This document shows, piece after piece, positions 23,427 to 58,747 of a stretch of DNA of 64,000 bases (position 1 is its first letter; the number at the start of each line of letters is the position of its first letter). The notes under the pieces were generated by a model that saw nothing but the letters and a program-made list of their open reading frames with translations, did no database searches and had not been told where the DNA came from. The stretch is from Chrysomallon squamiferum (lineage: Eukaryota > Animalia > Mollusca), in assembly GCA_012295275.1 (NCBI GenBank), contig CM022672.1, positions 11,160,001 through 11,224,000 of the forward strand, given 5' to 3'. The translations under genes were made by a program, and so were the position numbers.

Positions 23427-23469
<43 letters not shown>

Positions 23470-27208: not shown

Positions 27209-27240
<32 letters not shown>

Positions 27241-30200: not shown

Positions 30201-32578
30201 ACTGTTATTATTTATTATTGTTATTGTTGTTGTTGTTTTTGTTGTTAATTTGAATACTGAATTTGGTAAATTTAAAAAATGAAAAGGAAAGAAAGAAGAA
30301 AATAAAGATTTCGTATTCATACTGTTGTAATATTTTTTTTTCTTTCTATTGTGGCTTTTTCCTGTAATAGAAAAACTGACCACATATATATTATGAAAAT
30401 ACTGACCAGTTATAGAACAAGCAAATATTGTTTATAAATTGTAGATGTACTATCCATGTGTTTGGTACTAAATACAGTATGTTATGATTCTGAAACTTTG
30501 AACATTCAAAAGCTGGTGATAAATTTAACATACACATTTCTTGTTGGTACAAATAAGTGTTAATAATTTTACAGGATGAATGGAGGATGCAGATGTCAGT
30601 GGAACCTTCTGGAAGTCCATCCATGACGCATCCAACAACACCCAGAATGAAGAAAGATATAAAAGAGAAACCATTCAAACCAGGTTTGTTTACATTAAAT
30701 ATGACCTTAGTGGTTTGTATAGTTGGCTTAAATACATGTTCTGTACTTAGGGGTGATTGTTTTTACACTCAGTCTTTGCTGTCAATTATATAAAAGAAAT
30801 TTATAAATAATGTTGGAGACCTGCATTTTATCTTAGGTATCATTTAAGATAGATAATTGTTAAAAATAAAATAATGTAGTATCTGAACATAGTGTACCTA
30901 TAGTTCATCAGCACAGTCTTTTTAAGCCATTTTCACCTTTCTGTAATATTCTCTTTATTTAGGAAGGTAACATAATATTATTGTTACATACAACTTTCAG
31001 TTGTTACAGTTTTATCATTATCATTGTCATTGTCATTGTCATTATCATTATCATTATCATTATCATTTTTTTTTTTTTTTTTTTTTTTAATTTATTTGGC
31101 AAAGATCTAGTTGTACAATGGAGAGGTCAAAGTTATTTAGTATTGTGATATTTTATTATTAACAAAGATAGTTCAGATGTGACAAATCAACAGGGACTTC
31201 AAAGTAGGCCAAATGTATTTAGACATATTTTGCAACTTAGAACTGTTGCCTAACGTCTCATGAAACATAACAAAAATAAAATGTTAGAGCAAATAAAGAA
31301 TTATTTTCTCTTTTTTTTTTTTTTTTTTTAAGTTGTTGGAGATCCACATACAGTGTCTGATCCAAAAGACATAAAACTTAAAGAAATATCTGACCAACTA
31401 GATTCAATAGAGGTTTGGTATTGTAAAATTTACTAATGTTTTAGACCTGAATAATAGTTGGATTTAAGAGAATATTAAGACTTTATTTTATTTCACCAGA
31501 ATTATTAATAAGATGGTTTTTCTTGTCTTTTAAAATGCAAATGTTCAGAACAATTATAATAATAAATAATAATAACAAAGAACCAAAATAAAAATAAATA
31601 AATAAAAAATAAAATAAATAGTAATGACGAGTCTAATGAAGAAATTATGCAATTGTGTATTGTTAATTAATTCTATTTTTAATTATAGTAACAATGGTGC
31701 ATAAAAATACTGAACCTGACCAAAACATGCCAGATCAGATAGATAATAAATGAATCTGACTGAAAAGGACTTTAAAATGAATATACTTGCACTTTTTCAG
31801 TTTCAGTTTCAGTTAATTTCTGATGCATACATCCAGTGTATTAAAATGATTTCAGATTCCTGGTGTAAAAGAACTTCCTGGATTGTTTGGTGAAGATCTG
31901 GATTTAGCCGATGATTCTCCTGAAGCAGATACCATGGTTGAAGAGTTGTTGTCTCCAAGAACAATGCCAATAATAACTGAAATGTAGGTACTGTTCAACT
32001 CTGATAGCATCATGGCCATCAATATACCATTAAATGACTGCATTAGATAAAAAATCCTGCCAAATTTCACTGATTAATTCAGTCGAGAATGTCAGCAAAA
32101 CATGGATTTATATAATTGACCACCTAAGTTTCTGTGGTGTCAAAAAACCCCAGAAAGTGTGGATGATTCTAGGGATAATACTTTATTTCACTATATATTA
32201 AAAGAGTCTGGCTGTTTAATACAAATATTTCCATTAACAGCTGTATTTCTGAAAATTACATTTTTATTTAACTGTTAATTAAAATGAATCGAATGGATTA
32301 TGTCTTTTAAACATCATACTCAATTTTAGTTCTGTTTAACAGTTTTTAATTTGAATATTTAAAATAATTTTGTATCTTCCATTGAAAGTTTATATATTTT
32401 CATTCTATTATTTTAATTTTATTCCCAGTGAATCTCTGACGCCTGAGGAAAAAACACCTGCAGTTAGACCTGTTCAAAGGAGAGCACCTCCTTCACCCGG
32501 TGTGACTCCTGCACCTCCTACAAAGGCTAGAACTATAAAGGTGTGTGGATATTGTTATCTTTATATTCTTCTGATTAG

Positions 32579-32612
<34 letters not shown>

Positions 32613-35600: not shown

Positions 35601-37216
35601 AATATTATGTAATTATTTTCTTTCAAATAGAGGTAGGGAAATGTCTATTCCTGAAGATGAGATGTATGCAGAGGCTCAAACTAGAGAAAGTACATCTGTC
35701 AGAGATCTTGGCAGTCTTTTTGTTGTACCTGAGGAGAAAGAAGATGTTGTAAGTCCGTTAGTTTCACCTGCTCTTGAAATACCCCATCATGTTTCATCTA
35801 TAGAGGTCCTAAGGTAACCCATATTTGTTATTTCTCACCTAGTAAATATAGCATTCTTTTATAAGTAAAAGTTGCAAAATAGTCTCTTTTTGACTAGTAA
35901 AGAGCTGATTAAAGCTAATTTGTATTGCATTAGTTTTCTACAAATTCTTTTTCTTTGTTCTTTTTTTGGTTATTAATAGTGAACCAAAGGACAGGTATAT
36001 AGTAGTCTAGATTTATTTTGTTAGTTTTTACTGAAATTTATCCATAAATTTTATTATTAAAAATTTATAGAAAGATAAAATATATTTCTGGACTAATGCA
36101 GTATTTTATCATTTGTATTTGAATTCATTTTTAAATATAGAATGTGTAAATCTTTTTATTTTGTTTTATTGTTTAGGAACTTCATATAGAGTTATTTAAT
36201 AATGAAAAATAAAGATTAAAATATATTTTAATAATTACATTTAAGAAACAAATAATAACAATTAAATGAGAATTATCTAATTTTAACAGCTGCATCAACT
36301 CTCAGTTGAAATCAAAAGAAGAGACAACTTTCAGAGATATCTGCCCAACAAGCAAAACAAGACCCTATGCAGCTCAGATGTTTTCTGAATTTCTTCGTAT
36401 GTATATAGAAGTGTCTTTTCTTTTCTTTTATAAAATCTTCTTCAAACTGGAAGTCTATAATATCCTGATTTTAAAACTGTAAAGTTAGTGCATTATATTT
36501 TAATGGTTTTGTGTTTTAAAGATGTGACAGACAAAAATAAGAATCCACATCTAAGATTTCTAAATTACAGAATATGAAATGAAATCTGCAGATTTATATA
36601 TATTTAAAATGAAAGGAATTGTAATGAATGAATTAACAACAGGTATTCACAATATCTCAGCACATTTTATTATCTTCAAAATCTCAAGAATGTGCATACC
36701 ACAAAACCTTTGTAAACAAGCCATGGGCCATTGTTGGAACAGGAAATGATAATGATACGCCCTATAATTGTTTAGGCCTGCAATATAACAAACTGAGCTA
36801 GAGCTATTCTGATTTGTATGAAATGTACAAAGCTTAAATGATGTATTTGAATGTAAGAAAATTTATTGTTATCAGTCAGCATCAGTATTTAACCGTAATA
36901 ATCAAGGTGACATTTTAAAAAATAACTTAATATCAAATCGTCTGTAAATAATGAAAATAAATATCTGTATACTAATTATCCTAAAACCCATCCATAATAG
37001 AAATATAAATTTAATTTTTTTATATTTTTAATTATATCAGTATGTGCATTAGGTAATTTAATTATCTCAACTTTTACACTGGTTAGGGCATATCAGTTTT
37101 GTGTCACTAGTTATTTTTATTTCTTTCATTCATTAGAATTATGTAAAACTGGTCAAGTATCTGCACGACAAGAAGAACCATATGGAGATATTTACATTAC
37201 TCGTGGTGCAAACTGA
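27025..37216 (+). CDS. REC8: Meiotic cohesin kleisin REC8-like, copy 1 (conserved), about 623 aa, 17 coding exons
   Basis: Exons 27025-27080, 28248-28316, 28708-28844, 29197-29281, 30057-30174, 30575-30683, 31333-31412, 31856-31983, 32429-32540, 32992-33147, 33455-33515, 33949-34059, 34276-34385, 34852-35021, 35631-35813, 36290-36396, 37137-37216. N-terminal MFYSQDILQKRGGKFGIIWIAAT; Rec8-type RLSLYLSSQLMFGVVR; central RRKRRRQHLLVDRETQI; C-terminal winged helix AAQMFSEFL..ARQEEPYGDIYITRG. Confidence 0.88.
27382..28082. mobile_element. Non-autonomous DNA transposon (about 700 bp, Sola2-like family) in the first coding intron of REC8 copy 1
   Basis: Termini GGGTCATTCCGTGTCAAATCACC ... GGTGATTTGACACGGAATGACCC. 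Highly similar to one arm of the element at 48330-51180 and absent from the matching intron of copy 2. Confidence 0.85.
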
Positions 37217-39460: not shown

Positions 39461-39949
39461 TAATTATTTTAAAAAATAAATAATGTAAACGAGATTCTAA
39501 ATAAATAAATTTATCACTTTTTCTTTATTGCTATCATTACTATTTTACAAAAATATTATCTTTATAAAAGCATGACATTATGCGAAAATAATTTACTTTA
39601 TTAACGTTTTATTTTGTTAATACAGGTAAAAAAAAAAAACACCAAAAAACAACCATATACACTTTTGAATCAAAACTGTAGAAAATATATTAAAATTTAT
39701 TTCAGTACAGAATATATAAATATAATTATAAGATTGAGAATAATTGCAGTGACGAATATTCACGTTGTGCTTGCTGAGGGGAATTCAGCAACACAAGATA
39801 TTGTATCACTTACTTTTTTTATTTAGTTTTAGATTCTTATTTATATTATTTGTAGCTTTTTGTCTTTTACTTTCCGGTATCTTAAATAACAAATACACCT
39901 TTCATCTTTATCTCGGTCTCAAAGTAAGTTACGATAGCTTTAGATTTTT

Positions 39950-42225
39950 AAAAATTAATATAGTCTTGTCTATATATTTAAAATCGAACTGTTTTGTTTG
40001 TTTTTTTTAAAGGGGGAAAAAAACAATTACACTACAAACAACACCCAATGGCAACCAAACATACGAAAACATAGGGAACCGTCACTGATGACTCGGATAT
40101 GGAAACTATAGTTCCCAGACGACCGAGTGACAGGAGCCCTAACTCAGAAGAAAAAAACAAATGTAACAGGAGACAAAAAAAAAAAAAAGAAAAAAAAGAA
40201 ACGAACAACACATCCACACACACCCATACATTCTGACTCGGAGGAAACAGCGGAACAAAAAATCATAAATCGAAACCTACACATATTAGCAAGCCTTAGC
40301 GACACCGAAAACGAAAGCGATGCAAACATTTGGGAAACAACGAAAAAAAACAACACATAAAAATAACATATTGAACGCCGAGATACCATCGCGATACAAA
40401 AAAAAAAAAAAAAAAAAAAAAAAAAACAGGCAGATATCGAAAAAAGTTGCGATATTTGTTAGAAGCGCAAATACATATCATCGATAAAACAACTGAAGTA
40501 AACAAAATCATTAAAAGCTATAGGTCCCAGCATAACTATCTGGGAAGGAGTATTTATTACCAAAAATAATCCCTGACAGCAGACAAACAAAGAAAATACC
40601 CATACCACAACCCAGAAAAACACTACTCACGCAACAGCAGCCAAAGCAAACATTAATTACACAGCAACAAAACAACCCAAACAAACAACAAAGAAACAAC
40701 AAATTCACAAAAACATCTCCAAAGATTTGGGTTTTTACTACCCGTACGCGGACAAGCATGATTTCTTTGAGATGTTTAACAAAGAAATAATACAACAAAC
40801 AATCAACTAAACAGCGACCATCACCCAATACTCACCAACTACAACAGCAAGAACACTTTCTCGGATAGATCCATTTCCACACCCAAATGGAACTTCAACA
40901 AAGCGGACTGGGAAGGCTTCTACAAAGCATGCAGAAATATCACCACATAAAACCCAACGACATCGACACCTTCTGCGCATCGCTCACCAACACGATACAC
41001 TCCATTGCTAACAAATTCATACCCAAAACCAGACAATGCACCGGCAAAATATCCACTCCCTGGTGAACGGAACGCATAGAAAAGAAATGCAAAAAAAGAA
41101 ACATCTTCAAAAGACAATACAAAAAAGACCGAAATCATTCCACACACGAAAAATACAAAATACCAAAAAAAAAAAAAGAAGTTTCCAACCTAATTCTCAT
41201 CGCAAAACAAGAACACTGGGAACTCTTTTGCAACAACATCGACCACAAAACATCAGTCAAAGACATATGGGCCAAAGTGAAAAACATCCAAGGCAAAAAA
41301 CCCCACAGAATCAACACTCTCGGCAAAAACAACATCGCATTCACAGACCTACTCAGCGTAACTTTCGCCAAGTCCAGCAGCAGTTTCGAACTTCCCACTG
41401 AAATTCACAAAGAAACTACTGGACAACCCAACAAATGACGAACATTCCGCAGACACAGAACACATGAAATACAATCAACTCTTCAACATCAGCGAATTAA
41501 AACATGCCCTCAAAAACAAGAAAAGTACAGCCACGGGGCCAGACAAAATAAGCTACACAATACTACAACACCTTCCAGATGAAACACTACTAATCTTATT
41601 TGATCTCTACAACACAATATGGACCATAGGCAAGATTCCAACAAACTGGAAACACGCCGAATGTTTCAGCTTGCCCAAACCACACAAAGATCACTTACTA
41701 CCCAACAGCTGCAGACCGATCACGCTGACGTCACACATGTGCAAAACACTGGAAACGATGATCAACACACGCCTGAACCAGCATCTAAACGACAACAATT
41801 TAATTAGCAAATATCAAAGCGGCTTCAAGAAGAAACACAGCACAAACGACCAGATCACCCGTCTGCAAACATCAATCAACCAATCTTTTAGGAAATCGAA
41901 AAAAAGTCATCGCAATATTCATAGACATTGAAAAAGCCTTCGACATGGTTTGGAGGGAAGGACTGCTCGTCAAATTAATCAACAACAACATCAAAGGCAA
42001 CATGTTCAACTTCATTAAAGACTTCATCAACAACAGATCCACAGCCGTCAATGTGAACGGTCACACCTCCGAAAAAAAAAAACGACAATCGACAACGGCA
42101 TCCCACAAGGATCCGTGATCTCGCCTACACTCTTCAACGTTTACATCAACGACATCGTCACAGCACTCGACAAACAAGATAACGTCAAAAATCCACCAAC
42201 CGAACCAATAAACACAGCGCCTTAC
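39950..42225 (+). mobile_element. Decayed non-LTR retrotransposon (I/Nimb/Loa-like), 5' part: ORF1 remnant, end of endonuclease, RT up to Y of YADD
   Basis: A/C-rich strand bias; SDHHPILT (~40813), KWNFNKADWEGF, ATGPDKISY, RPITLTSHMCKTLE, QSGF, FIDIEKAFDMVW, GIPQGSVISPTLFNVYINDI; frameshifts in A-runs. The 5' boundary is approximate. Confidence 0.88.
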
Positions 42226-44045
42226 TCCCATCTGGTAGAATTCCCATTTCGTCGAAATGCTAAATGTGGTTCAGTGGTCTTAATGACATGTATGTCTTTA
42301 CCTCAGTCATTATAATGAACTGTTCCATATTATTTGGAAAGCGATTATTATTGTATAAATACAGTAATATTTCGCTTAACGATATCCTGCTTTAATGATC
42401 TTTTTTCTTTACAAATTATATAAACAGAAATTTAATAGTTAATTGCTCGAAATAAATGATACAAATGCATACAATGCATGTTTTTAAGTCCATATCGTTC
42501 GGTTTTCGTTCATTCACGAGCTTCTCTCAGCTGTGTTGATCAGTTGACACGTCATACGTGCATCTAATATTCTGATTCTCTTTTGTCTTCTGCTTCGATT
42601 TAGACTTAAACTCGTTTGTAATTTACCCTTCCAATATCTCAAAACGGATAACTGTATACTGGCAAATGCTGATGATAAAAAGAAACAGAAGACAATAACT
42701 TTAGAAACAAAATACATTATCTTAAATGAAACCAAAACCCACAAAAACGAACCCACAATGAGCGGCATATAATTATTTCTTAATGTATTTGTATAAATTG
42801 ATTTGTAATGATTTACTGTTTACTTAATATCTATAATCTATTAAATCATTTACGTCTAAACTGCTGTTTTATTTCTCCTTATTTCACCTTTTTTTTTTTT
42901 TGGTCAGATTTCATCAGGGAGAAAGTAACCACTGCCTTTAATCTCAATTCTATGTAAATTAGTCTCCCGCTTACCTCACTTAACCTTCGGAAATTTGGAA
43001 CCAGTTACATCTTTAACCTGAGGTATTACTGTAGTATGGATATCGCTTATCGCATAAAGTATGCAAATATGACAAATATCGAAATAATCTATGTATCGAA
43101 TGTAGTGAATGTAAATAATTAAAAAAGAAGGTATTCATCTAAAAGTATTCCCAATGATTTGGTCTAGAATAAACTTTTTCAGTCATAGCCAAAGTATTTG
43201 CAGGTCATAATATCTTTAGTGTACATATTATTAATATACTATATCACATATATTGTATAATAATATGTGCACAATGTGAATATGTATGTGTGCATAACGT
43301 AAATATGCTCGAAACATATATCTTGAACATGTTTGAGCTTAATATGGTTTAATTCGAACAGTTAATGATAAATGTAACGTTCACATATTCTATTTACTGA
43401 ATATAAGTGAATTACTCGTATGTAAAATATGTTTTTTTTTTTAATTATATTGCTGAATAAAATTAGTTATTTATAATATTTTTGTTGTTTTCTTTTATAG
43501 AAGCAAACCATGAGAATTAACAAAAAACACATCGTGCCGCTTTTTTCTTTTATTCTTTTTTTTTTTTTTTTTTAATAAATAGATGAAATTGATGTAAAAT
43601 TGTTTATTATTGCTTGTTTTGTAACGGAAAGGAAATGTTTATGAATTAGAAATTTAAATAATAATAATAATACGAATAAAAATAAGAAGAATACGAATAA
43701 TAAAAATAATAACAACAACAACAACAATAATATTAATAATAGTATAATAATAATAATGTTGATGATGATGATGATAATGAGAAGGTAGAAGAAGATGATG
43801 ATAATAATGAAAAAGTAAAAAATCTACAACAAATGAATAGTGAACGCTTATTCTGCTTTCGGTTGATGTTACGTAATCGATTTAGGAACAATGCGCTCCG
43901 CCTCTGAATGTTAGAAAGAAACAAGATGTATGTACAGGCCAAGTTCATTATATACAGAGGTAATCAGGTATTGCGGTAGACGAGTTTTTTTCTACGAAAT
44001 GGGAATTATACGACCTGGGAATTCTACCAGACGGGAAGACTCCAA
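42226..44045. mobile_element. About 1.8-kb non-coding insertion with terminal inverted repeats nested in the LINE RT
   Basis: Left end tcccatctggtagaattcccatttcgtcgaaa; right end tttctacgaaatgggaatt..tgggaattctaccagacggga. AT-rich interior; LINE coding resumes immediately afterwards. Confidence 0.7.
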
Positions 44046-45131
44046 CAGACGACTGCTCCTTTTGGCGTGCAGGCAGATCGACCGCAGCAATACAGAAACA
44101 AATACAAAAAGACCTAAACAACGTAAACGACTGGGCGTTGAAATGGGGCATAAAGATTTCTCTTTCCAAAACGACATGCCTCCTTTTCAACAAAAAAACC
44201 CAGACAACAACAAAATCGCACTAAACATCGACAACAACGTCATAACACAAACCAAAACATTCAAATTTCTACGTGTGACATTCAACAGTCAACTCAACTT
44301 CGGATGCCATATACGCAACATAATTGCATCCTGCAAAAAAACACCCAATCTTTCAAAACTAATTTCCGGCACCAGTTGGAGAGCAAACGAGTCAACGCTA
44401 ATTTTGATACACAAAGCATGTATTCTCTCCAGGCTCGACTACGGAGCCACGGCTTACTCGAATGCTCCCGAATACTCTTTACAAAAACTAGACGTAATAC
44501 AATCCAGCGCCCTCAGAGTGATCCAAACACAACACCATCCGACAGCCTCCTGTCGGAATACAGCATCCAACCACTAAAATACAGAAGAAAGCTGCAGCTA
44601 CTGAAATACCACCGAAAAATACACGCCCTCAGCACAGACCACCCCGTCAAGGATCTGGTCCCCGACCAACAAAGAATAGGACAACTCTTTAAATCGCATA
44701 GTCTACTACTATCGAATTTCCCGACAAAAGTAAGCGAAATCGAAAGGGAAATAGGAATAGGGAAAATGTCACTGCCGGAATACAACAAAGAAACAAAACC
44801 AGCAATAAACACACCTTTACTGATAAAAACAGAAACAGACGAAAGAGAGTTCCCACCCTTCAAAAAAGCTATATTTCTAGCAGCAGCAAACAACCACTAC
44901 AAACAACACTCGCACATCTACACCGACGGATCCAAAAACCTAGACAACGTTGACGAATACGAGACCTTCTACGAGCAAGACAAATGCCGGAAACCACAAG
45001 GAGCGGAAAACATCGCAACCGATTCGTTACGATCCGATATGCTGGACACTCCCTTGTGTCCTGCAATCGTAACGAGAACCCACTCTCTTTCCTTACACAA
45101 AACTCTTTTCTGCGACGGACACGCCCGCTGA
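44046..45131 (+). mobile_element. Decayed LINE, 3' part: remainder of RT and RNase H start
   Basis: DDCSFW..IQKDLNNVNDWALKWGIKIS, FKFL.VTF.SQL.F..HI, SRLDYG..Y..LDVIQSSALRV, and the RNase H motif HIYTDGSK (~44915). Confidence 0.85.
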
Positions 45132-45678
45132 CCTGTCAGAAAGCGTGCCCGTCGTAGACGTGCTTCACAACAGTTTGCTCTCATTAGCACGTTAATTTTT
45201 TTCAAGGTTCAAGATATTCAAAGGCTGGTTCTTGCAATCGTAATACTTCGAGCATTTGCGCATATTTACGACAATTCTGGAAGAAGTTCTTTTAGCGGGA
45301 AAGCTTGAAGATTTTCTCCAGAAAAGAAAAGAAAAAATATAGCCTTTTGCATCAGTTTTAAGGTGAGAGGAAGGAACTAGAGTAATTATCTAAAACGGAC
45401 AACATTCCTATGTATTTTTTTCTCAAAATTTGTATTATAGGATGCAGCCTGTAGTAATTTACATAGGTATTTAAAGTGGTGATAGTGTCAGAAAACCTGA
45501 CCCAAATTTAATTGAGTCTAAGTTAAAAACCTCACATATCTAAAATAGATTTAAAATGTATTGTATTGTTACTGAAATTAAGCGAATCCATAAAAATAAG
45601 GGCGTCAAATGATTCTAAATTCATTATACATTATTATTTCGTACTTAAAAAAATAAAATTTTTATTTATTTATTTATT

Positions 45679-45754
<76 letters not shown>

Positions 45755-45997
45755 AACTCATAAATCTTAAATAATAATAATAATAAAAACATTTGTAACA
45801 ACAGCACATCACAGGAGATTGGATTGAGTTGAAATGACGTCATTTTATTTAATGTGCTTTGACGTGGCAGTAATGCAATCGTAACACTTCGACCATTTCT
45901 AGTGCAGTATTGTCTTCAGTACAAAATAATTAAGTCTAGAATATTACAGAAACTGTATAATTACTAATTTCAGGGTTTGCTGAAATCCTTAATTAAA

Positions 45998-46185
45998 ATG
46001 ATATCGAATATTGAGGATATTTTAAAGAAAAAAGATGGTAAATTTTCAGTAGTAAGGTAAGTTGTAATAGTGAAATATTGCATATTGAAAATTAAAAACA
46101 TTTTTTTAAATTTTATTTTCCTTTTTTTATAGTATTATTACTAATGCTACTACTATAGCTGTGGTTCATACCTCAACTATTACTA

Positions 46186-46248
<63 letters not shown>

Positions 46249-49200
46249 TAGTTTTTAGTAATCATAAATTAAATAGCTTTGAAATGCCAACTGCATCTAG
46301 TGTATATTTAATATTTGAAGTTATGTAAAAAAAAAAAAAAATACAATTAAAAGAAAACATTTTAATTTTTTTATATATATTAATTTGTATCTTAAATGAC
46401 ATGTACTATAAAATCTATTTAATATTTAAGATCGGTATCGAAAGTACCTTTTTAATATAATTCGAGTTCTACAAATAAACAATCAGAAACTGTAATTTAT
46501 TTTATTTGCTTTATTGATTTAGGACAGCTGCGAAACATCCCGAAAAATTAACTCGACGGGATTATGCCAAAGTGAATGTAAGAAAAACCAGGTATAACTG
46601 ATTATCAAGAAAAATTTCTTTTAACTTTTTATTTTCAAAAGCAAAAATTTATTTTAATATTATATTTTATTTCATTTCACATCACCTTTACTGTCTTTAT
46701 CGGTAAAATGAACCATCAAATTAAAACATGCAACAAACATTTTGTACAAGTTTATTAAAAATGTTAAGAATTTAACAATAACTTGAAAAAAAAAAAAAAA
46801 ATAATAATAATAATGATTCGTAAGTTGTTTTTTTCCTTTTAATGATGTACAGGATTATATAAATCTGTTTACATTATGTAAAGAAAACGTTTCTGAAACT
46901 GTACAAAGAAGTCTCAAAAAACAACAGTAACAAAGAAAATGATTCCTTAAAATATAAAGCTGCTTGTAAGTACTGGTATATAACTGACTTTCCAGTGAAG
47001 AAATTTTGGATTGTATACAAGTTCCCCCCTCAGAGGCAGGAAGCTATGAAACTCGACGTTCTCTGTATTTGTCTTCTCAACTTCTGGTCGGTGCAGTTCG
47101 CTGTCTTGATAAACAGGCGGACTATTTACTAGGTTTGTATCACCTTAAGTGTTACTAAGGAATGTGAAAAGCTGGTTATAAGAAAGTTACAACTTAATTT
47201 GATTCAGATATTATTCTTTCATGTTCGTTAACTTTATCGTTTTTAAAGAAGACTATTTAACAAATGACAGAGATGGGTAATTTTGGTAATTAGACAATTG
47301 TGAGTTAGTTACCATTGAACAAGATTGCACATAATTCTGTGTAGAGATTTCTTTTGGTCAACACAGTCTAAGTGTTGAAAACCTTTCTAAATGCTGCCAA
47401 CTCTTTCACTGAATCCCAATTTCTCTCCTTTAGACTTTAGGTTACTTTTTAGAATTTGTCATTTTGTATATGGCCTAAGATCAGATCAAGTAGATTAATT
47501 GTTTTACATATTATTTACAGGAGAACAGCAAGTTCTGTGGTAAGTTAAAATAAGGGAAACATTAGAAATTTCTTTTAATCTATGACCGTGTGCTGGGCAA
47601 TCGTCTTAGGAATGATTTTTCTATTTGAAATTGCTGTCGTGATCTGTTAAAATACTGCTAAATTATCAATTCCTGTTTTCTGACATCTCTCCACTGTCTT
47701 AAGTTTCTTTCTACACTTCTTCTTTCGACTTGCTATTTCAGGACTGATTTAGTGAGAGTAAATTATTTATTTTATTATTACTTTATTTTTCATGAAAAGG
47801 TGATCTTCGTGATTTAGCTGGACAAATTAAAAGTACTGAAACTCGTTCTTCAATACCTGACATAGATCTAAAAGTAACGCCTAGGTAAATTATGTGTGAT
47901 ATGTTAAAACTTGTATAAAAACTGGGTACTTTGTTTTCAGAGGTTATTTTACATTTCTTGAAACAATGTAGTTTTAACATTTGCAAATAAGATATTTGAT
48001 TTAGATACGTAAAATATAATTTAACCTGAAGTTTTCCTCAGCGGTCTAAAAACAGTCTTCTGATAAAAAATATTTCATCTGTTTTGAAAAAATTGTTTTA
48101 CTTTTTTATTTTTATTTAACTGAAAGAAAAGGACAAAGATATGTCCTATAAACTTTAAAAAAAAAAGAAAAAATTTTACTCAGAGCATAAACAACAACAA
48201 CAAAAAAAAAAAAAGAAAAAAAAAAAAAGAAGATAAATAAAACATATTTTTAAAAGGAATCCAGATATAGTTCTCTCTTTCTTATTATATTTAATATCTG
48301 TGTCAGAATTAGATAATAGAATTTGTAAAGGGTCATTCCGTGTCAAATCACCCAATGGTTTAAACCCGACCGTCTCAGATTTTTATGAAACTTGGTATAC
48401 TTGTTGACTGGGATCCCACAGCACCAAATCTGAAATTTTAGCTCAATCAGACCAGTGGTGTGGGAGATACGGCCCACCGAATTTTGAGATTTTTGCCAAA
48501 AATGGGTGTGGCCACCAACCTTAGAACCCTCACATCTCAGGAACTACTGGGCCAATCTTCATAAAATTGGTATTGTTAGAAAGGCAAAATGACAAGGATA
48601 CCAAATCTGCCATTTTTGTTTAGTTTGGAAAATACTGGAGTACCTTGACCTTTTGACCTTTGCTATGACCTTGAAACTGACCATGTGGATCACGTGATCT
48701 TGAGATGACCTTTGTTGAAATTTAATCTCCCACATGTTAACTAAAACATATAAAAGTTTCCTGGGTGTAATATTTTTTGTTTAGCCACAATATAGATTTA
48801 AAAAATGCACATACATGAAAATAACACCTTTTCAGCCATTAACATCTGATTAACTAAAACCTGAATGATCAATTCTGGATGCTAGGGATCACCATCTTTC
48901 TTGATCATCAAGTAAGACATTGTAGGCCTACATGTATGCATAAAGTTCACATAAATTTGAGAGAACTAGGTGTTTCTGATGCTTAACCTTCTCACTATGT
49001 TTGTTTCAAATGCTCACTGTATCCTTCATTCCCAGACACATTCTACTGTTCTCATCACTTTCATAAAATTGGATTATTTCCTCCTTCAATTCATTGTCCT
49101 TTCAATGGTAAAGGGTGACAAAATCAAGATTTGCACACACTCTGGGTAGGATTCAGACATTAAGATGTCATTTTAATGTTACTGTAGCTGATGCTAGTTT

Positions 49201-52200
49201 TTTTCTGTCCTTTCATTCATTTACTGGAATTTGCTAGTGAATGGAGTTTGAAGAGGAGTTTCACCTAAACTCGACAGAATAGAATTCAAATCAAAGTCCT
49301 TTTCTGGGGAAACAACAACCAGTGGTTTGTCTGGCAAGTTATCACCAAATTCTCCCATTGTAATACCACCCATACTAAAGCCATCCTCTGCAGGACCTTT
49401 GATTTCTGAAGGGTAATCAGACAGTCACAGCACAACTTGTCTCCTGGCACTAGTGTCTTTGGAGGATTTACTAAGCATTTGTAAGTGCCCATGCTAACAA
49501 TTCTTAAAGATCTAGTGCGTGCTTGCTCAGGGTGGCGATTAAGGGGATCACAACAGTTTTTCTGCAATGTTGAAAATTTGATGAAAAGTTCTTGTTCGTG
49601 ATACTCTTGATGTCCCGTGTTTTGATCCCACTTCAAAGAGTGAGGAGTTCAACTTCCTCAGTTTTCCATACACTTCGCAACAACTCCTTTTTGATATGAT
49701 GGTGTTGATAACACACATTTTCAGGAGAGTTAAAGCTGCAGTTAGCCCTGGAAGAAATAAGGATTTTCAGTATTGGCCTGCACCTTCAATTCAATAGAAC
49801 AAAGTCAGTGCTTTCCTAAATATTAAATCAAATCCTGAAACCCTTTCAGTAAAGTTAAGCAGGTCATAAAATGGCAGCAGAGTACATGTGTTATTGCCAA
49901 AGGCCCACAAGTCTTGGGCATTTATGTCAATCTTCTCAAGTATAAATCACAGTTTATTAAGGTGAAGTAGACCTTGTTCATACTCTGTGCCGAAGACTGG
50001 GTGTACAAATACATTATGCAGTACATCACTCGATGACGTCTGATTTCAGACTGGGTTGTACTGTTGTTGACTGAAACCTTGTTCAAAACCAATGGCACGG
50101 CCCACATGACATGATAAAATTACTTAATAGGTTTTATGAAATAAAAATATTGTTTATATATCAACATCTGACATTGTGTCCAACTTAAAAAGCTTCAGAT
50201 TGTCAAAGAAATGCAGATGAAGAAACTTCTTTGTCTTAAACTTCTAATTGCCATGTGTTCAATGGGGATTGCACCAGGGAATCTAAAGGAGTTCCTGACC
50301 TGCCTGAAGCATCACTTCCTGTTAACCCTTTCAGCCTGATTGTGTACAACATGTCATGCCATTTGGCATCTTTTCATATCCTTCAGGCATTCCTTCAGAC
50401 ATGTCAGATGGGTTTTAACTCCAAAGATGAGTTTTTAGTCTCAGAAAAAATGTACATTGTAATGCATAGTATCAATCATCCATGCAGGTATGCATTTTTT
50501 AAATCTATTATGGCTAAACAAAAAATATTATACCCAGAAAACCTTTATATGTGAACTTTATGCATACATGTAGGCCTACAATGTCTTACTTGATGATCAA
50601 GAGAGATGGTGATCCCTAGCATCCAGAATTGATCATTCAGGTTTTAGTTAATCAGATGTTAATGGCTGAAAAGGTGTTATTTTCATGTATGTGCATTTTT
50701 TAAATCTATATTGTGGCTAAACAAAAAATATTACACCCAGGAAACTTTTATATGTTTTAGTTAACATGTGGGAGATTAAATTTCAACAAAGGTCATCTCA
50801 AGATCACGTGATCCACATGGTCAGTTTCAAGGTCATAGCAAAGGTCAAAAGGTCAAGGTACTCCAATATTTTCCAAACTAAACAAAAATGGCAGATTTGG
50901 TATCCTTGTCATTTTGCCTTTCTAACAATACCAATTTTATGAAGATTGGCCCAGTAGTTCCTGAGATGTGAGGGTTCTAAGGTTGGTGGCCACACCCATT
51001 TTTGGCAAAAATCTCAAAATTCGGTGGGCCGTATCTCCCACACCACTGGTCTGATTGAGCTAAAATTTCAGATTTGGTGCTGTGGGATCCCAGTCAACAA
51101 GTATACCAAGTTTTATAAAAATCTGAGACGGTCGGGTTTAAATTTCTTTTTTTTTTAGGTGATTTGACACGGAATGACCCTAAAAGTTTATTCATAAATA
51201 TTATATAAAGAAAAATAATTAGCATTTTTAATCATTTACATATTTTATTAGAAATACAGCTTTTCTTAGAATAAGGACAGTTAAATAAGGTGATCAAATA
51301 ATGAAAAATTCCTAAAGTACTCTGATCAACAATTATCCTTGTTTTTCTAGTTTTATTAACTTTAATAAAAGTAGTCTAATATTAATGTGTGTCTTTCTGT
51401 ATGAATATAAATGTATGTATGTATGTATGTATGTAACCTTAGTTTGTACTATTTAAAAAATTGTAATTCCAGAGCTGAACAGGTTACTCTGATGGACATG
51501 ACTGATGCATCTGACATACGTAACCCAGCAAATGACCCTACTTTTGGAAAATTCGACAAGGAAGAAATGACAAAGGAACTGGCTATGTTGGTTTGTTCAG
51601 TTATTGTTATTGTTGGTTTTGTTGTTAATTTGAATACTGAAATTGGAAAATTCAAAAAAATATGAAAAGGAAAGAATGAAGAAAATAAAGATTTCCTATT
51701 CATATTGTTATAATTTTTTTTTCTTCTATTTTTTCTTTTTCCTGTAACAGAAAATCTGACCACGTATACATTATGAAAATACTGACCAGTTATTGAACTA
51801 GCAAACATTGTTTATAAATTGTAGATGTACTATCCATGTGTTTGGCACTAAATATAGTGTGTTATGATTCTGAAACTTTGAACATTCAAAAGCTGGTGAT
51901 AAATTTAACATATTCATTTCTTGTTGGTAGAAATAAGTGATAATAATTTTACAGGAGGAATGGAGGATGCGGATGTCAGTGGTACCTTCTGGAAGTCCAT
52001 CCATATCGCACTTGCCAACAACACCCAGAATGAAGAAAGATATAAAAGAGAAACCATTCAAACCAGGTTTGTTTATATTAAATACGACCTTAGTGGTTTG
52101 TATAGTTGGCTTAAATACATGTTCTGTACTCAGGGGTGACTGTTTTACTATCAGTGTTTGATATCAGTTATATAAAATAAATTTATAAATAATGCTGGAG

Positions 52201-52932
52201 ACCTGCATTTTATGTTAAACAATATTTAAGATAGATAATTGCTAAAAATAAAATAATATCTGAACATACTGTAGCTGTAGTTCATCAGCACAGTCTTTGT
52301 ACCCATTTGCACCTTTCTGTAATATTCTGTTTATTTTAGAAAGGTAACAATATTATTGTTATGTACAAATTTCAGGGGTTCCAGTTTTATCATTATCATT
52401 ATCATCATTGTCATTATCATTATCATAATAATAATTATTTATTTATTTATTTATTTTTATTTGGCAAAGATCTAGTTGTTCAATGGAGAGGGCAAAGTTA
52501 TTTAGTATTGTGGTATTTTATTATTAACAAAGATTGTTTAGACGTGACAAATCAGCAGGGACTTCAGAGTAGGCAAAATGTGTTTAAAGCATAAAGACAT
52601 ACTTTACAACTTAGAACTGTTGCCTAACTTCTCATAGAACAAAATAAAAATAAAATGTTAAAGCAAATAAAGAATTCTTTTCTCTTTGTTTTTTCTTTTT
52701 TTAAGTTGCTGGAGGTCCACATATGGTGTCTAATCCTGAAGACATTAAACTTAAAGAAATATGTACCCGAATACAGTCAATAGAGGTTTGGTATTATTTG
52801 TAATAATTTACTAATGTTTTAGACCTGAATAATAGTTGGATTTAAGAGAATATTAAAACTAGATTTTATTTCACCAGAATTATTAATAAGATGGTTTTTC
52901 TTTTCTTCTAAAATGCAAATGTTCAGAACAAT

Positions 52933-52992
<60 letters not shown>

Positions 52993-55601
52993 AAGAATAA
53001 AAAGAAAAGAAAAAAATGAAAATAAATAAATAAAAAATAAAATAAATAATAATGATGATTATAATAATGAAATTATGCAATTGTGTATTCTTAATTAATT
53101 CTGTTTTTAATTATAGTAACATGTGGTACATAAAAATACTGAACCTGACCAAAACATGCCAGATCAGATAGATAATAACTGAATCTGACTGAAAAGGACT
53201 TTAAAATGAATATACTTGCACTTTTTCAGTTTCAGTTTCAGTTAATTTCTGATGCATACATCCAGTGTATTAAAATGATTTCAGATTCCTGGTGAAAAAG
53301 AACGTCCTGGATTGTTTGATGAAGATCTGCATTTAGCCAAGGATTCTCCTGAAGCAGATATCTTGGTTGAAGAGTTGTTGTCTCCAACAACAAAGTCAAG
53401 AATAACTGAAATGTAGGTACTTTTCAACTCTGATAGCATCATGGCCATCAATATACCATTAAATGACTGCATTAGATATAAAATCCTGCCAGATTTCACT
53501 GATTAATTCAGCTGAGAATGTCGGCAAAACACCCTACAAAGATTGGATCTATTAAAAGAGTCTAGCTGTTTAATAAAAAAAAATTTCATTAACAGTTGTA
53601 TTTCTGAAATTTTCATTTTTTATTTAACTGTTAATTAAAATGAATCAATTGAATTATGTTTTTTAAACATCTTAGGCAGTTTTATTTCTGCGTAACAGTT
53701 TTTAATTTGAATATTTAAAATAATTTTGTATCTTCCATTGAAAGTTTATATATTTTCGTTCTATTATTTTAATTTTTTTCCCAGTGAATCTCTAACACCT
53801 GAGGAAAAAACACCCGCAGTTAGACCTGTTCAAAGGAGAGCACCTCCTTCACCCGGTGTGACTCCTGCACCTCCTACAAAGGTGTGTGGAAAAAGTGATA
53901 ATATAAAAAAGATGACACAGTTAATACAATGCCATGTTTAAATATTGTTTAAATAATAATTAATAAACATTCATAAAACTACAGCTATTTGCATCTCAAA
54001 AATAGTGTCTCTGATTTTCTTTTTGTTTTGTAAATTAGATTGTTTATTGTCACCAACTAATTTCTTAAATCTCGCTGGTTCATAAATAAACCCATTACTT
54101 GATTCTTGAAACTGATTTTTCTCTAAGATTTTAATTGTTTTTTATAAAACATTTGAAATATCACCTACTATCTTTTCTTAATAAGCTGCTCTATACTAAG
54201 CTGTAGGCATGAAATATTTTTATTTTGTCTTTTTTTTTTATATATATATATATATTTATTTGTTTGTTTGTTTGAGACCTAACCTTACAATGGAGTTGAA
54301 TCCAATTACTTCTGATCCTGTAAGAAGACAAAGGGAGCAACATCTCTTAGTCGACAGAGAAAACAAGATTCCTTTTAAAAGAATGAGAGAACAGCTGCTT
54401 ACTAGATCTCATACTTGTATTTCTTTAGTAAGTTAAAATGGAGTCTGTTAAAGAGGACGTTTAGAAGTACATACTAATGGCCTAAAAAAAAAAATTACTT
54501 TATGTTTTGGGTAATTTTTGTTAGGTTTCATTCATCCAAAAATACATTTATTCACTTTTGGATGAAGAACATTCACCAGTGGTAACTGTAATAATTTATT
54601 GTGATTAAAAACAAGTTTTATTGATGATATTGCTCTTGTATTATTTTGATTTATATCTATTTCAGACTGTTTAAAAAGACTATTTCTGTTTTAAAAGACT
54701 GCTAAAAGACTAAAGAGTATAAATTTTGGTATAAATTACCAATATATACATGTCACTGAATATTAGGATTTAAAGAAAGAATATTTGTCATGATTTAATC
54801 TTTTCTTAGATTCGACCTGATCCACATCCATCCACTGTTGATGAACTCTTTAATTATCCTGGAAGAAAAAGTAATTAACTGTATATTCTTATGTTTTTGC
54901 TTTGCCAGTAATTCTTTGAAACTTCAGTAGTAGTAATTCTTCTTTAATTTTAAGTCTTTCTTTTTACTTTTTTATATATACAATCCAGTGATCATGAAAA
55001 GACTGATCATTAACAATGTTGTGTATCATATGCCTATCTGTGATGAGAACAGAGTTTATTTATGTTGGTTTGTCACATATTAATTTATGTCAAAAAGAGT
55101 TGAGTTAAAATCATAATGCTAGCATTGAGTAGAGATATACACCTCCTTTGAAGATAAATTTCATTAAAAAATACCCAAAACAACTGACTAAGCATCAAGA
55201 TGAGTTTAACTAAACTTTGCTAGATTCTGGTAATTACGTATTCTAGACACTATTCTGAATAAAAAGTAATTTGACTGAAAGTAACTATCAACTCTTATTA
55301 AAAATAATTAGTAAAATAAATATGTCGAAGGATTTTTAAAGTTCTGTTTTGTATTTTAGCATTAAGGCATCCAAAGTTGTTTCCACTATGGAAGCAGAAT
55401 GCTGAAATTGGAGATACTCCAGAAACCAAATCTGAGAAAAATACTCCAATATGGACAGTTTCAGAACTAGGTAATAATTTTATTTTAATCAGATATTGTT
55501 ATCAGTTAATTGATACCATGATAAATATGATGTACTGAAATAAACTGAGTTTTTTTATCAGTTAAAAATTCTCATCAAAATAAAGTTTCTTGCTTTCATT
55601 T

Positions 55602-55634
<33 letters not shown>

Positions 55635-58600
55635 TATATCTATAAATTAAATGAAACAATAGATTCACTTAATTTTTCTGGTTTGTTATAAATAAATCTT
55701 TAAATATAAATATATATATATATAAAAATCTTTAAATAAATCTTTAAATAAATAATATATATATATATATATAGATCTTTAAATAAATCTTTTAAATAAA
55801 TCTTTAAATTTATATATATATATATCTGTGTGTGTGTGTCCTGTATAATTTTTGGTGCTAATTTTTCTGTTTGTACTGCATCTGAGTTTAATTTCAGGTA
55901 CTCATAAATCTCTAAAAGACACTGAATTACTGAGTTCACGAAGATCAAGAAAAGAGCTTCCTCCTCAGGCTTTGGAAGGCCCTTTGGAAACAGCTAGGGC
56001 TGCAGAGGTATTTAATCATCTATATTTCACCTACCTCACCAGATAGAAGTATCTTATAGTCTATATTTCACAGGATTCAGTAAAGAGAGGTATTTTATAA
56101 TCTGTATTTCATTGATATCATAGATGTATTTTATAATCTATCACAGATGTCAGTTGATAGATGTATTTTAAGTCTACATTTCAAAGACCTAAGTAGACAG
56201 TTTATATTCAACAGACCTAGATGGAGATTGTATTTCTAATAAAGAGATATCAATAAAGAAAATAATTATTGTTATTTCAGACTTTTAATAATTATAAAGA
56301 TACAAAAAGTAATTAAATACAGTGCTTTGTGTTTGTTTACAAACATTAGCAAAGGTATATATGAATGTAATATATATATATTTACATTCACATATATTTA
56401 TTTTAAGAATTTGTTTGCTGCTTTTTTTTTTTTTTCAGTAACTAGGTTTCAAAAAGCAACACTCTGGTTTGATTTGTTGAAGTCAAGATCAAAATAGCTA
56501 ATATTATATATTTTAGATTTCAGAGAGTGAAATAACAAGGACCCAGTCTCTGGAAGGGACCCTTCAGGGTAGAGCAACATCTGTTTCCATGGAAAGAACC
56601 ATTTCTTTCAATCGAGAAAAAAGCTTGGATGATCAAAGTACTGACAAAATTGAAGAGACTCTCCAAGCTCAACCTGTGTATGTTTATAAAAATTCTTTTG
56701 TCTAAAATTTAAATATTGTTAAAGATTGTGTTACGTTTCTTGTGAAGGATGATATATAACAGTTATGGAATAAGTGTGTGACTGTTTAACGATGTTTCAG
56801 CATGTTTTACTATTAATACTTGTTATGTATTAGACAGACTTTTGGGGGTTATTTCTGTCAGTTGGCAGCAAAATACCTTTTATTTGCATTGTCACAAAAG
56901 CCATCAATAACATTTTAGTATTAGGTATTATACTTTTTTTTGCGTAATGATAACAAGAAAAAAAAGCTTTCTGTTGTACTTCATGGATATAAAACACATA
57001 TTATGACCTTTCAATAAACCAGTTATGGAGCATAAAAAGTTCTGTAAATTACATCTGTACCAGCAAATTAAAACCCACTAATAATGTTTATGGTGATACT
57101 AACAGCAAAGAAATAAATATGTCTGTACTTAAATAATTCCCACATCTGCTCTTCTCTTTTTACTGATTTTAAAAATATTATGTAATTATTTTGTTTCAAA
57201 CAGTCTTAGGGAAATACCTATTCCTGAAGATGAGATGTATGCAGAGGCTCAAACTAGAGAAAGTACATCTGTCAGAGATCTTGGCAGTCTTTTTGTTGTA
57301 CCTGAGGAGAAAGAAGATGGTGTAAGTCCGTTAGTTCCACCTGCTCTTGAAATACCCCATCATGTTTCATCTATAGAGGTCCTAAGGTAACCCATATTTG
57401 TTATTTCTCACCTAGTAAATATAGCATTCTTTTATAAGTAAAAGTTGCAAAATAATCTCTTTTTGACTAGTAAACAGCTGATTAAAGCTTATTTGTATTG
57501 TATTAATTTTCTACAAATCCTTTTTCTTTCTTCTTTTTTTGGTTATTAATTGTGAACCAAAGGACATGTATATAGTAGTCAAGATTTATTTATTAGATAA
57601 AATATATTTCTAGACTAATGCAGTATTTTACAATTTGTATTTGAATTCATTTTTAAATTTAGAATGTGGAAATCTATTGATTTTGTTTTATTTTTTAGGA
57701 AATTCATATAGAGTTGTTTAACAATAAAAATAAAGATTAAAATATATTTCAATATAAACATTTAAGAAACAACTAAATAATAACAATTAAATGGTGTTTC
57801 AAATATATTTGAGAATTATCTAATTTTAACAGCTGCATCAACTCTCAATTGAAATCAAAAGAAGAGACAACTTTCAGAGATATCTGCCCAACAAACAAAA
57901 CAAGACCCTATGCAGCTCAGATGTTTTCTGAATTTCTTCGTATGTATATAGAAGTGTATTTTCTTTTCTTTTTTAAAATCTTCTTCAAACTGGAAATCTA
58001 TAATATCCTGATTTTAAAACTGTAAAGTTACTGCATTATATTTTAATGGTTTTGTGTTTTAAAGATGTGATAGACAAAAAATAAGAATGCACATCTAAGA
58101 TTTCTAAATTACTGAATATGAAATGAAATCTGCAGATTTATATATATTTAAAAATAAAGGGATTGTAATGAATGAATTAATAACTGGTGTTCACAATATC
58201 TCATCACATTTTATTATCTTCAAAATCTCAAGAATGTGCATACCATAAACCTTTTGTAAACAAGTTGGAACAGAAAAAGATAATGATAAGCCCTATAACT
58301 GTTTAGGCCTGCAATATAAACTGAGCTAGAGCTATTCTTATTTGTATGAAATGTACAAAGCTTAAATGAGGTATTTGAATGTAAGAAAAATTATTGTTGA
58401 TATCAATCAGCATCACTATTTAACAGTAATAGTCAACATAACATTTTAAAAAATAACTTAATATCAAACCATCTGTAAATAATGAAAATAAATATCTGTA
58501 TATTAATTTTCCTAAAACCGATCCATAATAGAAATATAAATTTAATTTTTTTATAGTTTTAATTATATCAGTATGTGCATTAGGTAATTTAATTATCTTA

Positions 58601-58747
58601 ACTTTTACAATGGTTAGGGTATATCAGTTTTATTTCACTAGTTATTTTTATTTCTTTCATTCATTAGAATTATGTAAAACCGGTCAAGTATCTGCACGAC
58701 AAGAAGAACCATATGGAGATATTTACATTACTCGTGGTGCAAACTGA
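45998..58747 (+). CDS. REC8: REC8-like kleisin, copy 2 (diverged paralog; exon-10 acceptor lost)
   Basis: Exons 45998-46056, 46523-46591, 46996-47132, 47800-47884, 51473-51590, 51955-52066, 52706-52785, 53285-53412, 53785-53881, [54275-54427, no canonical acceptor], 54810-54870, 55360-55470, 55898-56007, 56517-56677, 57204-57386, 57833-57939, 58668-58747. No stops seen; all exonic indels seen are multiples of 3. Confidence 0.75.
48330..51180. mobile_element. Sola2-like DNA transposon, 2.85 kb, ~625-bp TIRs, decayed interior
   Basis: TIR arms 48330-48953 and 50548-51180; 4-bp TSD TAAA on both sides; empty site atttgTAAAagttta at ~29746 in copy 1; GGG..CCC termini; Cys/His-rich remnant ORF 49286-49636(-) (CCDPLNRH..LR..PGDKLCCDC). 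The superfamily is inferred from GRG termini, 4-bp TSD and long TIRs. Confidence 0.85.

What the first reader, a model, noticed from the sequence alone, without database searches (positions are those of the whole stretch)
45998..47884. REC8 copy 2 N-terminal exons diverge faster than their introns, with a compensatory new start codon
Seen (hand count): coding exon 1 differs at 14 of 56 aligned nt, all in amino-acid-changing codons (MFYSQDILQKRGGKFGIIW to MISNIEDILKKKDGKFSVVR). The next ~130 intronic nt differ at only about 10 positions. The ancestral ATG became ATA while the preceding ATC became ATG. Exon 3 has 14 amino-acid changes against 3 purely synonymous codon changes in 45 codons. Established: the kleisin N-terminal domain (MFY..W.AA plus the following helices) binds the Smc3 neck, the cohesin exit gate. 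Inference: positive selection is remodelling or disabling the Smc3 interface rather than neutral decay, suggesting neofunctionalisation, a dominant-negative kleisin or meiotic conflict.
Basis: partly seen in the sequence, partly recalled or inferred. Interest (0 to 1): 0.76.

Follow-up and report, generated by a model that had tools for sequence, protein, structure and literature searches.

The report
Duplicated REC8 lost its N-terminal tip
A young second copy of the meiotic cohesin gene REC8 is spliced in RNA, keeps an open reading frame and the helix that closes the cohesin ring, but has lost the conserved first 20 amino acids, so it would likely form rings that escape their normal release control, though slow decay of a spare copy is not excluded.

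Summary
The counts are exact: 14 of 56 nt differ in coding exon 1, against 10 in the next 130 intronic nt; ATG became ATA and the preceding ATC became ATG; exon 3 has 14 replacements and 3 silent codons. Copy 2 is real, spliced in two RNA runs, and free of stops and frameshifts. The reading needs correcting. Pairwise dN/dS is about 1 (0.8-1.4, not significant), and silent sites also outrun introns. But about 95% of the N-terminal amino-acid change lies on copy 2's branch, and exon 1 alone lost 6 of 11 conserved residues (7 of 71 elsewhere). That exceeds neutral expectation under most yardsticks, not all. These residues are not the SMC3-neck helix, whose anchors remain; they are the two small front helices that dock on the SMC3 head and are predicted to be gripped by WAPL and Sororin. 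The start switch needs no compensation. Contig ends imply exon-1 skipping and a 19-nt poison exon. Best reading (0.42): a diverging, still-coding paralogue that closes rings but has lost this control. Main rival (0.30): slow decay. Binding was not tested.

The parts
26997..37216 (+). REC8 copy 1, 18 coding exons, 632 aa (ATG at 27025); keeps every conserved residue that copy 2 lost
39900..45130 (+). decayed LINE-type element between the copies (approximate ends)
   Evidence: RVT_1 hit at 41362-41928, E 4.9e-09; broken frames
45235..45362 (+). inferred non-coding exon 0 of copy 2, donor after 45362; start not mapped; homology to copy 1 begins here
45874..45899 (+). second short copy of the sequence at which the duplicated block begins, about 75 nt before the exon 1 acceptor
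45974..46056 (+). copy 2 exon 1 (coding 45998-46056); encodes the two front helices; F2, Y3, R11, G12, G16, W19 lost (copy 1 numbering)
45998..46000 (+). new ATG (ATC in copy 1), A at -3, first ATG of the modelled transcript
46001..46003 (+). ancestral ATG, now ATA
46523..46591 (+). copy 2 exon 2
   Evidence: spliced to exon 3 in X8 and X9
46996..47132 (+). copy 2 exon 3; start of the long SMC3-neck helix, anchors kept
47412..47759 (.). 348-nt stretch present in copy 2 intron 3 and absent from copy 1; no other match in the window
47521..47539 (+). inferred 19-nt cassette exon; inclusion shifts the frame and stops at codon 96
47800..47884 (+). copy 2 exon 4
   Evidence: joints 3-4 (X8) and 4-5 (X8, X9)
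48323..51180 (.). transposon with about 630-nt inverted ends in copy 2 intron 4; spliced out
51473..58747 (+). copy 2 exons 5-18: open frame, 4 in-frame indels, C-terminal SMC1-binding domain almost identical to copy 1
54272..54277 (+). copy 2 exon 11 acceptor CAG changed to TTG; in-frame rescue sites exist, actual joint unknown

Best explanation
Copy 2 is a young, spliced REC8 paralogue with an open frame whose first 20 residues were stripped of their conserved amino acids, likely by selection, while the SMC3-neck helix and the SMC1-binding end were kept, so it is predicted to close cohesin rings that have lost the front helices used for SMC3-head docking and WAPL/Sororin control. Shown: duplication, splicing of exons 2-5, open frame, one-sided loss of conserved residues concentrated in exon 1, retention of neck anchors. 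Inferred: selection as the cause, translation from the new ATG, ring formation, and altered release. Likely order of events: ATC to ATG first (a harmless extra Met), then loss of the old ATG, then erosion of the front helices.
For: Spliced copy-2 contigs in 2 of 2 RNA runs laid; those joints are absent from 2 of 2 DNA runs. No stop in exons 1-15 where 4.2-5.0 are expected on one neutral branch (P0 0.006-0.012). No frameshift where 4.4 are expected (P0 0.012), and 4 of 4 exonic indels are in frame against 9 of 44 non-simple intronic indels. Exons 7 and 10 have 0 replacements and 6 silent changes. At sites conserved in at least 80% of outgroups, copy 2 alone lost 13 and copy 1 alone lost 0; exon 1 lost 6 of 11, exons 2-15 lost 7 of 71 (P=0.0015). 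Share of change on copy 2's branch: 0.96 for exons 1-4 (bootstrap 0.74-1.0) and 1.0 for exon 1 (0.80-1.0). Branch dN/dS for exon 1 is 3.0-6.0 and for exons 1-4 1.75-2.75, depending on the yardstick. Profile score of residues 1-24 falls from 40.4 to 12.4 bits, residues 24-100 only from 75.6 to 69.3. PMC10656103 names Scc1 Y3, L8, R11, W18 and W23 as predicted Wapl contacts and models the same for human Rec8 1-36; copy 2 lost Y3, R11 and the W18 equivalent and kept L8. RAD21 W18 bonds the SMC3 head.
Against: Pairwise ML dN/dS is 0.8-1.07 everywhere except exon 1, and exon 1 reaches only P=0.04-0.11 uncorrected. Outside exon 1, copy 2's loss of conserved sites (7 of 71) cannot be told from neutral under three of four yardsticks. 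Exon 1 was picked after the fact; counted as 9 events and corrected for 18 exons, P runs from 0.006 to 0.38. Silent changes are over-dispersed too (P=0.0005), so Poisson P values are too small. 4 of 6 changes in the first 14 nt match a 12/14 template 74 nt downstream, the best such match among the windows tested, so one templated event is possible. The branch estimates assume equal mutation rates on both branches and use distant outgroups. Zebrafish RAD21 lacking residues 1-21 fails to rescue the mutant. Inferred exon-1 skipping and a poison exon fit loose constraint. The Wapl contact model is itself a prediction.
Confidence: 0.42

Rival explanations
1. Copy 2 is a spare, still-transcribed duplicate in slow decay. 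Most of its protein drifts near neutrally, and exon 1's excess is a mutation cluster plus after-the-fact choice.
For: Pairwise dN/dS about 1. Conserved-site loss outside exon 1 matches one neutral branch. With a 1.65-fold local rate, exons 1-4 fit neutrality at both silent (13.5 vs 13.3) and replacement sites (47.5 vs 47.3). Possible templated event. Lost exon 11 acceptor. Inferred aberrant isoforms. Upstream homology ends beside a LINE.
Against: No stops, no frameshifts, 4 of 4 indels in frame. Exons 7 and 10 invariant at the protein level (P0 0.0003-0.005). The two-branch neutral fit ignores that copy 1's N-terminus barely changed. A new in-frame ATG was kept.
Confidence: 0.3
2. Copy 2 makes an N-terminally disabled kleisin, either full length with dead front helices or starting at Met124 after exon-1 skipping. 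It binds SMC1 through its intact C-terminus and acts as a brake or dominant negative on copy 1 cohesin, or selection simply disabled a harmful extra dose.
For: C-terminal exons 16-18 almost identical (6 replacements in 122 codons). Both internal Mets before 124 lost. Skipped isoform inferred in both RNA runs. Zebrafish RAD21 lacking 87 residues is toxic in wild type, and lacking 21 is a loss of function.
Against: Neck-helix anchors kept (25 of 28 conserved sites in exons 2-4). Three short out-of-frame ATGs precede Met124 in the skipped form. The 3' identity may be gene conversion, since introns 15-17 are also closer (6.3% vs 9.3%, P=0.0003).
Confidence: 0.18
3. Meiotic conflict: copy 2 biases segregation or counters a driver.
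For: Meiotic cohesins are under positive selection in mammals (PMC11431564, passages); fast one-sided change here.
Against: Nothing specific: no segregation, sex-expression or sweep data. The mammalian selected sites lie mostly in disordered regions, not at residues 1-20.
Confidence: 0.07
4. Assembly artefact: two haplotypes joined in tandem.
For: None beyond the general risk in heterozygous animals.
Against: About 10% intron divergence against 3 substitutions per DNA run in 2 kb; forms with and without the 348-nt stretch occur in 2 of 2 DNA runs; RNA contig ends fit both copies spliced in the same samples.
Confidence: 0.03

Closest known systems
Animal REC8 (mollusc and hemichordate REC8 homologues, e.g. 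Mytilus, Mizuhopecten, Lottia, Solemya)
   Same: Rad21_Rec8_N and C-terminal kleisin domains, SLYLSSQL helix start, PHTV and SPGVTP blocks; both copies form one clade 100/100.
   Different: Copy 2 lacks F2, Y3, R11, G16 and W19, each present in 10 of 10 mollusc and hemichordate outgroups with that region.
C. elegans REC-8 versus COH-3/4 (PMC4758955; abstract and section 16 read)
   Same: Meiotic kleisin paralogues that differ in WAPL sensitivity, which depends on kleisin identity.
   Different: Those are old paralogues and the cause was left open in that paper; here the pair is about 90% identical in DNA and the difference sits on the predicted Wapl-bound residues. WAPL sensitivity here is untested.
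Budding-yeast Scc1, which lacks the first small helix (PMC10656103, section 6 part 4)
   Same: A kleisin can work with the most N-terminal helix replaced by non-conserved residues.
   Different: There the second helix is proposed to take over; copy 2 changed both, including W19.
Zebrafish RAD21 deletions of 21 and 87 residues (bioRxiv 10.1101/2022.06.24.497451, section 11)
   Same: The first 21 residues match exon 1's span; the longer deletion resembles the exon-skipped form.
   Different: Engineered deletions in the mitotic kleisin; copy 2 keeps a basic segment of the same length (net charge +7 vs +8 over the first 42 residues), L8, G13, F15 and A21-A22.
Vertebrate RAD21L and teleost rec8 duplicates
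   Same: Duplicated kleisins with fast evolution (RAD21L dN/dS 0.49, REC8 0.27; a 'REC8 b' record).
   Different: Ancient; the selected sites listed for REC8 start at residue 152.

Membership tests
REC8-type alpha-kleisin | Rad21_Rec8_N domain (PF04825) | tested here: met
   Exon 3 alone: copy 1 25.8 bits (cut-off 23.1), copy 2 20.7 bits, E 4.8e-4; residues 1-101 of copy 2 score 91.9 bits on an outgroup-only profile.
REC8-type alpha-kleisin | C-terminal kleisin domain (PF04824) that binds SMC1 | tested here: met
   Copy 1 exon 18 23.5 bits (cut-off 22.7); copy 2 has 1 replacement in exons 17-18. Binding itself not tested.
REC8-type alpha-kleisin | Closer to REC8 than to RAD21 | tested here: met
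   The one named hit of exon 3 is Mytilus rec8; relatives named REC8; N-terminus matches mollusc REC8, not human RAD21. No mollusc RAD21 was in the tree.
REC8-type alpha-kleisin | Conserved MFY...R.G.FG..W.AA front helices | tested here: not met
   Copy 2 lost 6 of 11 conserved exon 1 sites; copy 1 lost none.
REC8-type alpha-kleisin | Hydrophobic anchors of the SMC3-neck helix (yeast L75, L89) | tested here: met
   Ungapped ranges map Scc1 L68/L75/L89 to L65/M72/L86; copy 2 has L, L, L. Essential role of L75 and L89: PMC6579514 passages. Nearby changes L63R, F73V, V75A, F93L.
REC8-type alpha-kleisin | Central STAG-binding basic motif | tested here: inconclusive
   Region maps to RAD21 STAG-bound peptides; copy 2 has R329E, K342F and a 1-residue deletion.
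REC8-type alpha-kleisin | Forms a ring with SMC1/SMC3 and holds sisters in meiosis | not testable with these tools
REC8-type alpha-kleisin | Germline-restricted expression and separase cleavage | not testable with these tools
   Tissue of X8 and X9 not given; contigs show presence only.
Pseudogene | Stops, frameshifts or lack of spliced RNA | tested here: not met
   the exon 11 acceptor loss remains unresolved.

The most novel reading that the evidence does not exclude
A naturally evolved WAPL-proof REC8: after tandem duplication, selection removed exactly the N-terminal residues that WAPL grips to hold cohesin's exit gate open, giving the animal two meiotic cohesins, one releasable and one locked, a minimal young version of the REC-8 versus COH-3/4 split.
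Probability: 0.25. Interest if true: 0.8.

Novelty: new variant of a known kind. Interest (0 to 1): 0.55.

Why it matters
How WAPL opens cohesin, and why some meiotic kleisins resist it, are open questions. The proposal that WAPL sequesters the kleisin's first 20 residues rests on structure prediction (PMC10656103). This pair is a natural test: two co-existing REC8 proteins, nearly identical at the C-terminus and in the neck anchors, that differ at three of the four shared predicted WAPL contacts. Swapping exon 1 between them tests the model directly. If copy 2 is only decaying, the case is an ordinary young duplicate and a caution about reading selection from one exon against one intron.

Tried and rejected
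No whole genome was held, so further paralogues, SMC3 and WAPL could not be sought. A word-based search with exon 3 found nothing; no close outgroup DNA was obtained, so silent changes could not be polarised. McDonald-Kreitman has no power: 1 replacement and 1 silent variant in exons 2-4 in 4 runs. Intron 1 or intron 3 retention as the cause of contig ends is rejected: predicted 317 and 212/111 nt, seen 319 and 211/110. A variant at 46052 shared by both RNA samples would also give 319 and is not excluded. A hairpin over copy 2's exon 1 donor is rejected (z -0.22; copy 1 folds better, z -2.32). CpG decay does not explain the exon excess (20 of 215 differences). Exon 1 as an older paralogue's tract is unlikely, as its silent sites are unchanged. 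The 'ex1' row is invalid (identical values in all 200 replicates, a failed run) and was redone without Patella. Exon 0-1-2 and exon 10-11 joints were not seen in reads. No complex was folded. The oyster N-terminal model matched RAD21-N chains only at E about 1e-3. The scan's earlier notes held nothing. The crystal-structure paper on Smc3-Scc1 was not held. A search on start-codon turnover listed nothing relevant.

Full report
Setting. The window is 28% GC animal DNA. A block at 26102-39026 is repeated at 45235-61110, with a decayed LINE between. Both blocks hold an 18-exon gene. Copy 1 gives 632 aa; copy 2 gives 625 aa without stops, with four in-frame indels of 3, 15, 3 and 9 nt. Pfam finds the N- and C-terminal kleisin domains. 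The two hits of exon 3 among 1.84 billion proteins include Mytilus rec8, and the relatives fetched are named REC8. The two copies form one clade at 100/100 among mollusc, hemichordate and fish REC8, with branch lengths 0.065 and 0.22; their place among molluscs is unresolved. The organism is probably a mollusc (inference).

Exon 1 differs at 14 of 56 nt, the next 130 intronic nt at 10 plus one gap. All 12 changed codons change the amino acid. The new ATG is at 45998 and the old one reads ATA at 46001. Exon 3 has 14 replacements and 3 silent codons of 45. Contigs from two DNA and two RNA runs agree with the window's copy 2 letters, with one replacement variant (47002) and one silent variant (47065) in exons 2-4.

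Copy 2 is transcribed. Of 11 runs listed, 4 were laid on 46260-48320. Both RNA runs join exons 2-3 and 4-5, X8 also 3-4; the DNA runs hold none of these joints. Contig ends carry more. A k-mer graph built from modelled transcripts gives exactly the lengths seen, 319 nt in X8 and 211 and 110 nt in X9, when it contains spliced copy 1, copy 2 with and without exon 1, and (X9) a 19-nt cassette exon at 47521-47539; intron retention gives 317 or 212 and 111. This is inference: the neighbouring contigs were not listed, and a shared variant at 46052 would mimic skipping. Under either reading exon 1 is joined to exon 2. The cassette stops the frame at codon 96. The skipped form has no in-frame ATG before Met124. 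The exon 11 acceptor changed from CAG to TTG; two in-frame rescues exist, but the joint was not observed.

The frame is under selection. One neutral branch should have gathered 4.2-5.0 stops in exons 1-15 (chance of none 0.006-0.012) and about 4.4 frameshifts (0.012); 4 of 4 exonic indels are in frame against 9 of 44 non-simple intronic ones. Exons 7 and 10 have 0 replacements and 6 silent changes. Copy 2 is therefore not a plain pseudogene.

Rates. Filtered introns 1-4 differ at 140 of 1369 sites (10.2%), introns 5-15 at 8.4%, and the 82 aligned nt before the ATG at 14. Introns 15-17 are closer than introns 1-14 (6.3% against 9.3%), which suggests gene conversion at the 3' end. Pairwise dN/dS is 1.0-1.16 over the gene and 1.2-1.4 in exons 1-4 by counting, and 0.79-1.07 by likelihood, never significantly above 1; exon 1 alone gives P=0.04 or 0.11 by model. 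Against an intron-derived, composition-matched simulation, exons 1-4 exceed expectation at silent (13.5 vs 8.7) and replacement sites (47.5 vs 30.7) by the same factor. 'Exons faster than introns' is thus not by itself evidence of selection. Exon 1 is the exception: 12.5 replacements against 4.1-4.7 even if both copies drifted (P 0.0003-0.0007), or 7.4 at a 1.65-fold local rate (P 0.03).

Direction. With 11 mollusc and hemichordate outgroups, exon 1 changes polarise 10 to 1 toward copy 2, exons 1-4 22 to 9, exons 5-18 26 to 24. At sites conserved in at least 80% of at least 7 outgroups, copy 2 alone lost 13, copy 1 alone 0, and 18 differ in both; exon 1 lost 6 of 11, exons 2-4 3 of 28, exons 2-15 7 of 71. 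Likelihood puts 0.96 of the exon 1-4 change on copy 2 and 0.57 of the exon 5-15 change. Assuming equal mutation rates, copy 2's branch has dN/dS 1.75-2.75 in exons 1-4 (chance of 1 or less 0.037 to under 0.001), 1.3-2.3 in exons 2-4 (0.23 to 0.009), about 0.7-1.1 in exons 5-15, and 3-6 in exon 1; copy 1's exons 1-4 give 0.10-0.15. Against this: exon 1 was chosen after the fact; silent counts are over-dispersed; a 12/14 template 74 nt downstream could explain 4 changes at once, though it beats other windows by only one match; as 9 events, corrected for 18 exons, P spans 0.006-0.38. I put selection on exon 1 at about 0.55-0.6.

What was hit. A model of the oyster REC8 N-terminus has helices at 5-8, 14-23, 32-37, 40-52 and 69-108 and ranks RAD21-N chains first. 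Exon 1 covers the first helix and most of the second. The long helix that binds the SMC3 neck lies in exons 3-4. There the equivalents of yeast L68, L75 and L89 are L65, M72 and L86 by the ungapped ranges, and copy 2 has leucine at all three; L75K and L89K are lethal in yeast (PMC6579514, passages). Copy 2 does carry L63R, F73V, V75A and F93L nearby. A profile of outgroups scores residues 1-24 at 40.4 and 12.4 bits for copies 1 and 2, residues 24-100 at 75.6 and 69.3. In human crystal structures RAD21 5-26 packs on the SMC3 head with W18 bonded to S127; deleting residues 1-21 abolishes rescue in zebrafish and deleting 1-87 is toxic (bioRxiv 10.1101/2022.06.24.497451, passages and sections 11 and 16). 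PMC10656103 (abstract, passages, section 5 part 1, section 6 parts 3-4, section 10 part 1) predicts that Wapl sequesters these two helices through Y3, L8, R11, W18 and W23, that human Rec8 1-36 does the same, and that Sororin sits on the first helix. Copy 2 lost Y3, R11 (to K) and W19, and kept L8; the W23 position is not conserved in either copy.

The start codon. ATC to ATG directly before the old ATG adds one Met and frees the old codon; no compensation is needed (inference). In the modelled transcript the new ATG is the first ATG, with A at -3. Its use was not shown.

Verdict. Best reading (0.42): a still-coding paralogue that closes rings but has shed the helices for SMC3-head docking and WAPL/Sororin control. 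Rivals: slow decay with a mutation cluster (0.30), a disabled or dominant-negative kleisin (0.18), conflict (0.07), artefact (0.03). Kleisin paralogues with different WAPL sensitivity are known in C. elegans (PMC4758955, abstract and section 16), kleisin N-termini are functionally specialised there (PMC12080224, abstract and section 5), and meiotic cohesins evolve adaptively in mammals (PMC11431564, passages). Searches listed no paper on a mollusc REC8 duplicate or on a paralogue losing these residues; only listings were seen, and subscription journals are mostly absent. No supplements were read; those of the bioRxiv paper may hold further truncation data. Novelty: new variant of a known kind. 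Interest 0.55.

Noticed in passing
window 21677-25530, minus strand: Exons of a gene head-to-head with REC8 copy 1; motifs resemble the RNA phosphatase DUSP11 (name recalled, not confirmed by a call). Copy 1 keeps this shared promoter region; copy 2 has a LINE upstream instead.
   Followed up: partly
window 14065-18480, plus strand: Gene with a 521-codon low-complexity frame and short exons resembling R3HCC1L (name recalled); no Pfam match above cut-off.
   Followed up: partly
window 61605-64000, minus strand: C2H2 zinc-finger gene, tail-to-tail with copy 2.
   Followed up: partly
window 27376-28085, 48329-48953, 50538-51186: One transposon family inserted in both copies at different introns: a short form in copy 1 intron 1, a 2.9-kb form with inverted ends in copy 2 intron 4.
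   Followed up: no
window 45830-45899: CRE-like TGACGTCA and TGACGTGG motifs beside a repeat of the block's first 24 nt, just upstream of copy 2 exon 1; could be a second promoter.
   Followed up: partly
window 27059-27188: Copy 1's exon 1 end and donor fold with intron 1 better than shuffles (z -2.32); the stem is gone in copy 2.
   Followed up: partly
copy 2 protein: Four ExxR motifs (61, 157, 233, 443 and 454 make five in all) against one in copy 1, none shared; possible change in separase sites, or chance.
   Followed up: no
window 54275-54427 (exon 11): Second focus of one-sided change (12 to 3 toward copy 2) in the basic STAG-binding region, including R329E and K342F.
   Followed up: partly
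window 57100-60500: 3' exons, introns and UTR are only 2.5-7% diverged from copy 1, suggesting more recent gene conversion.
   Followed up: partly
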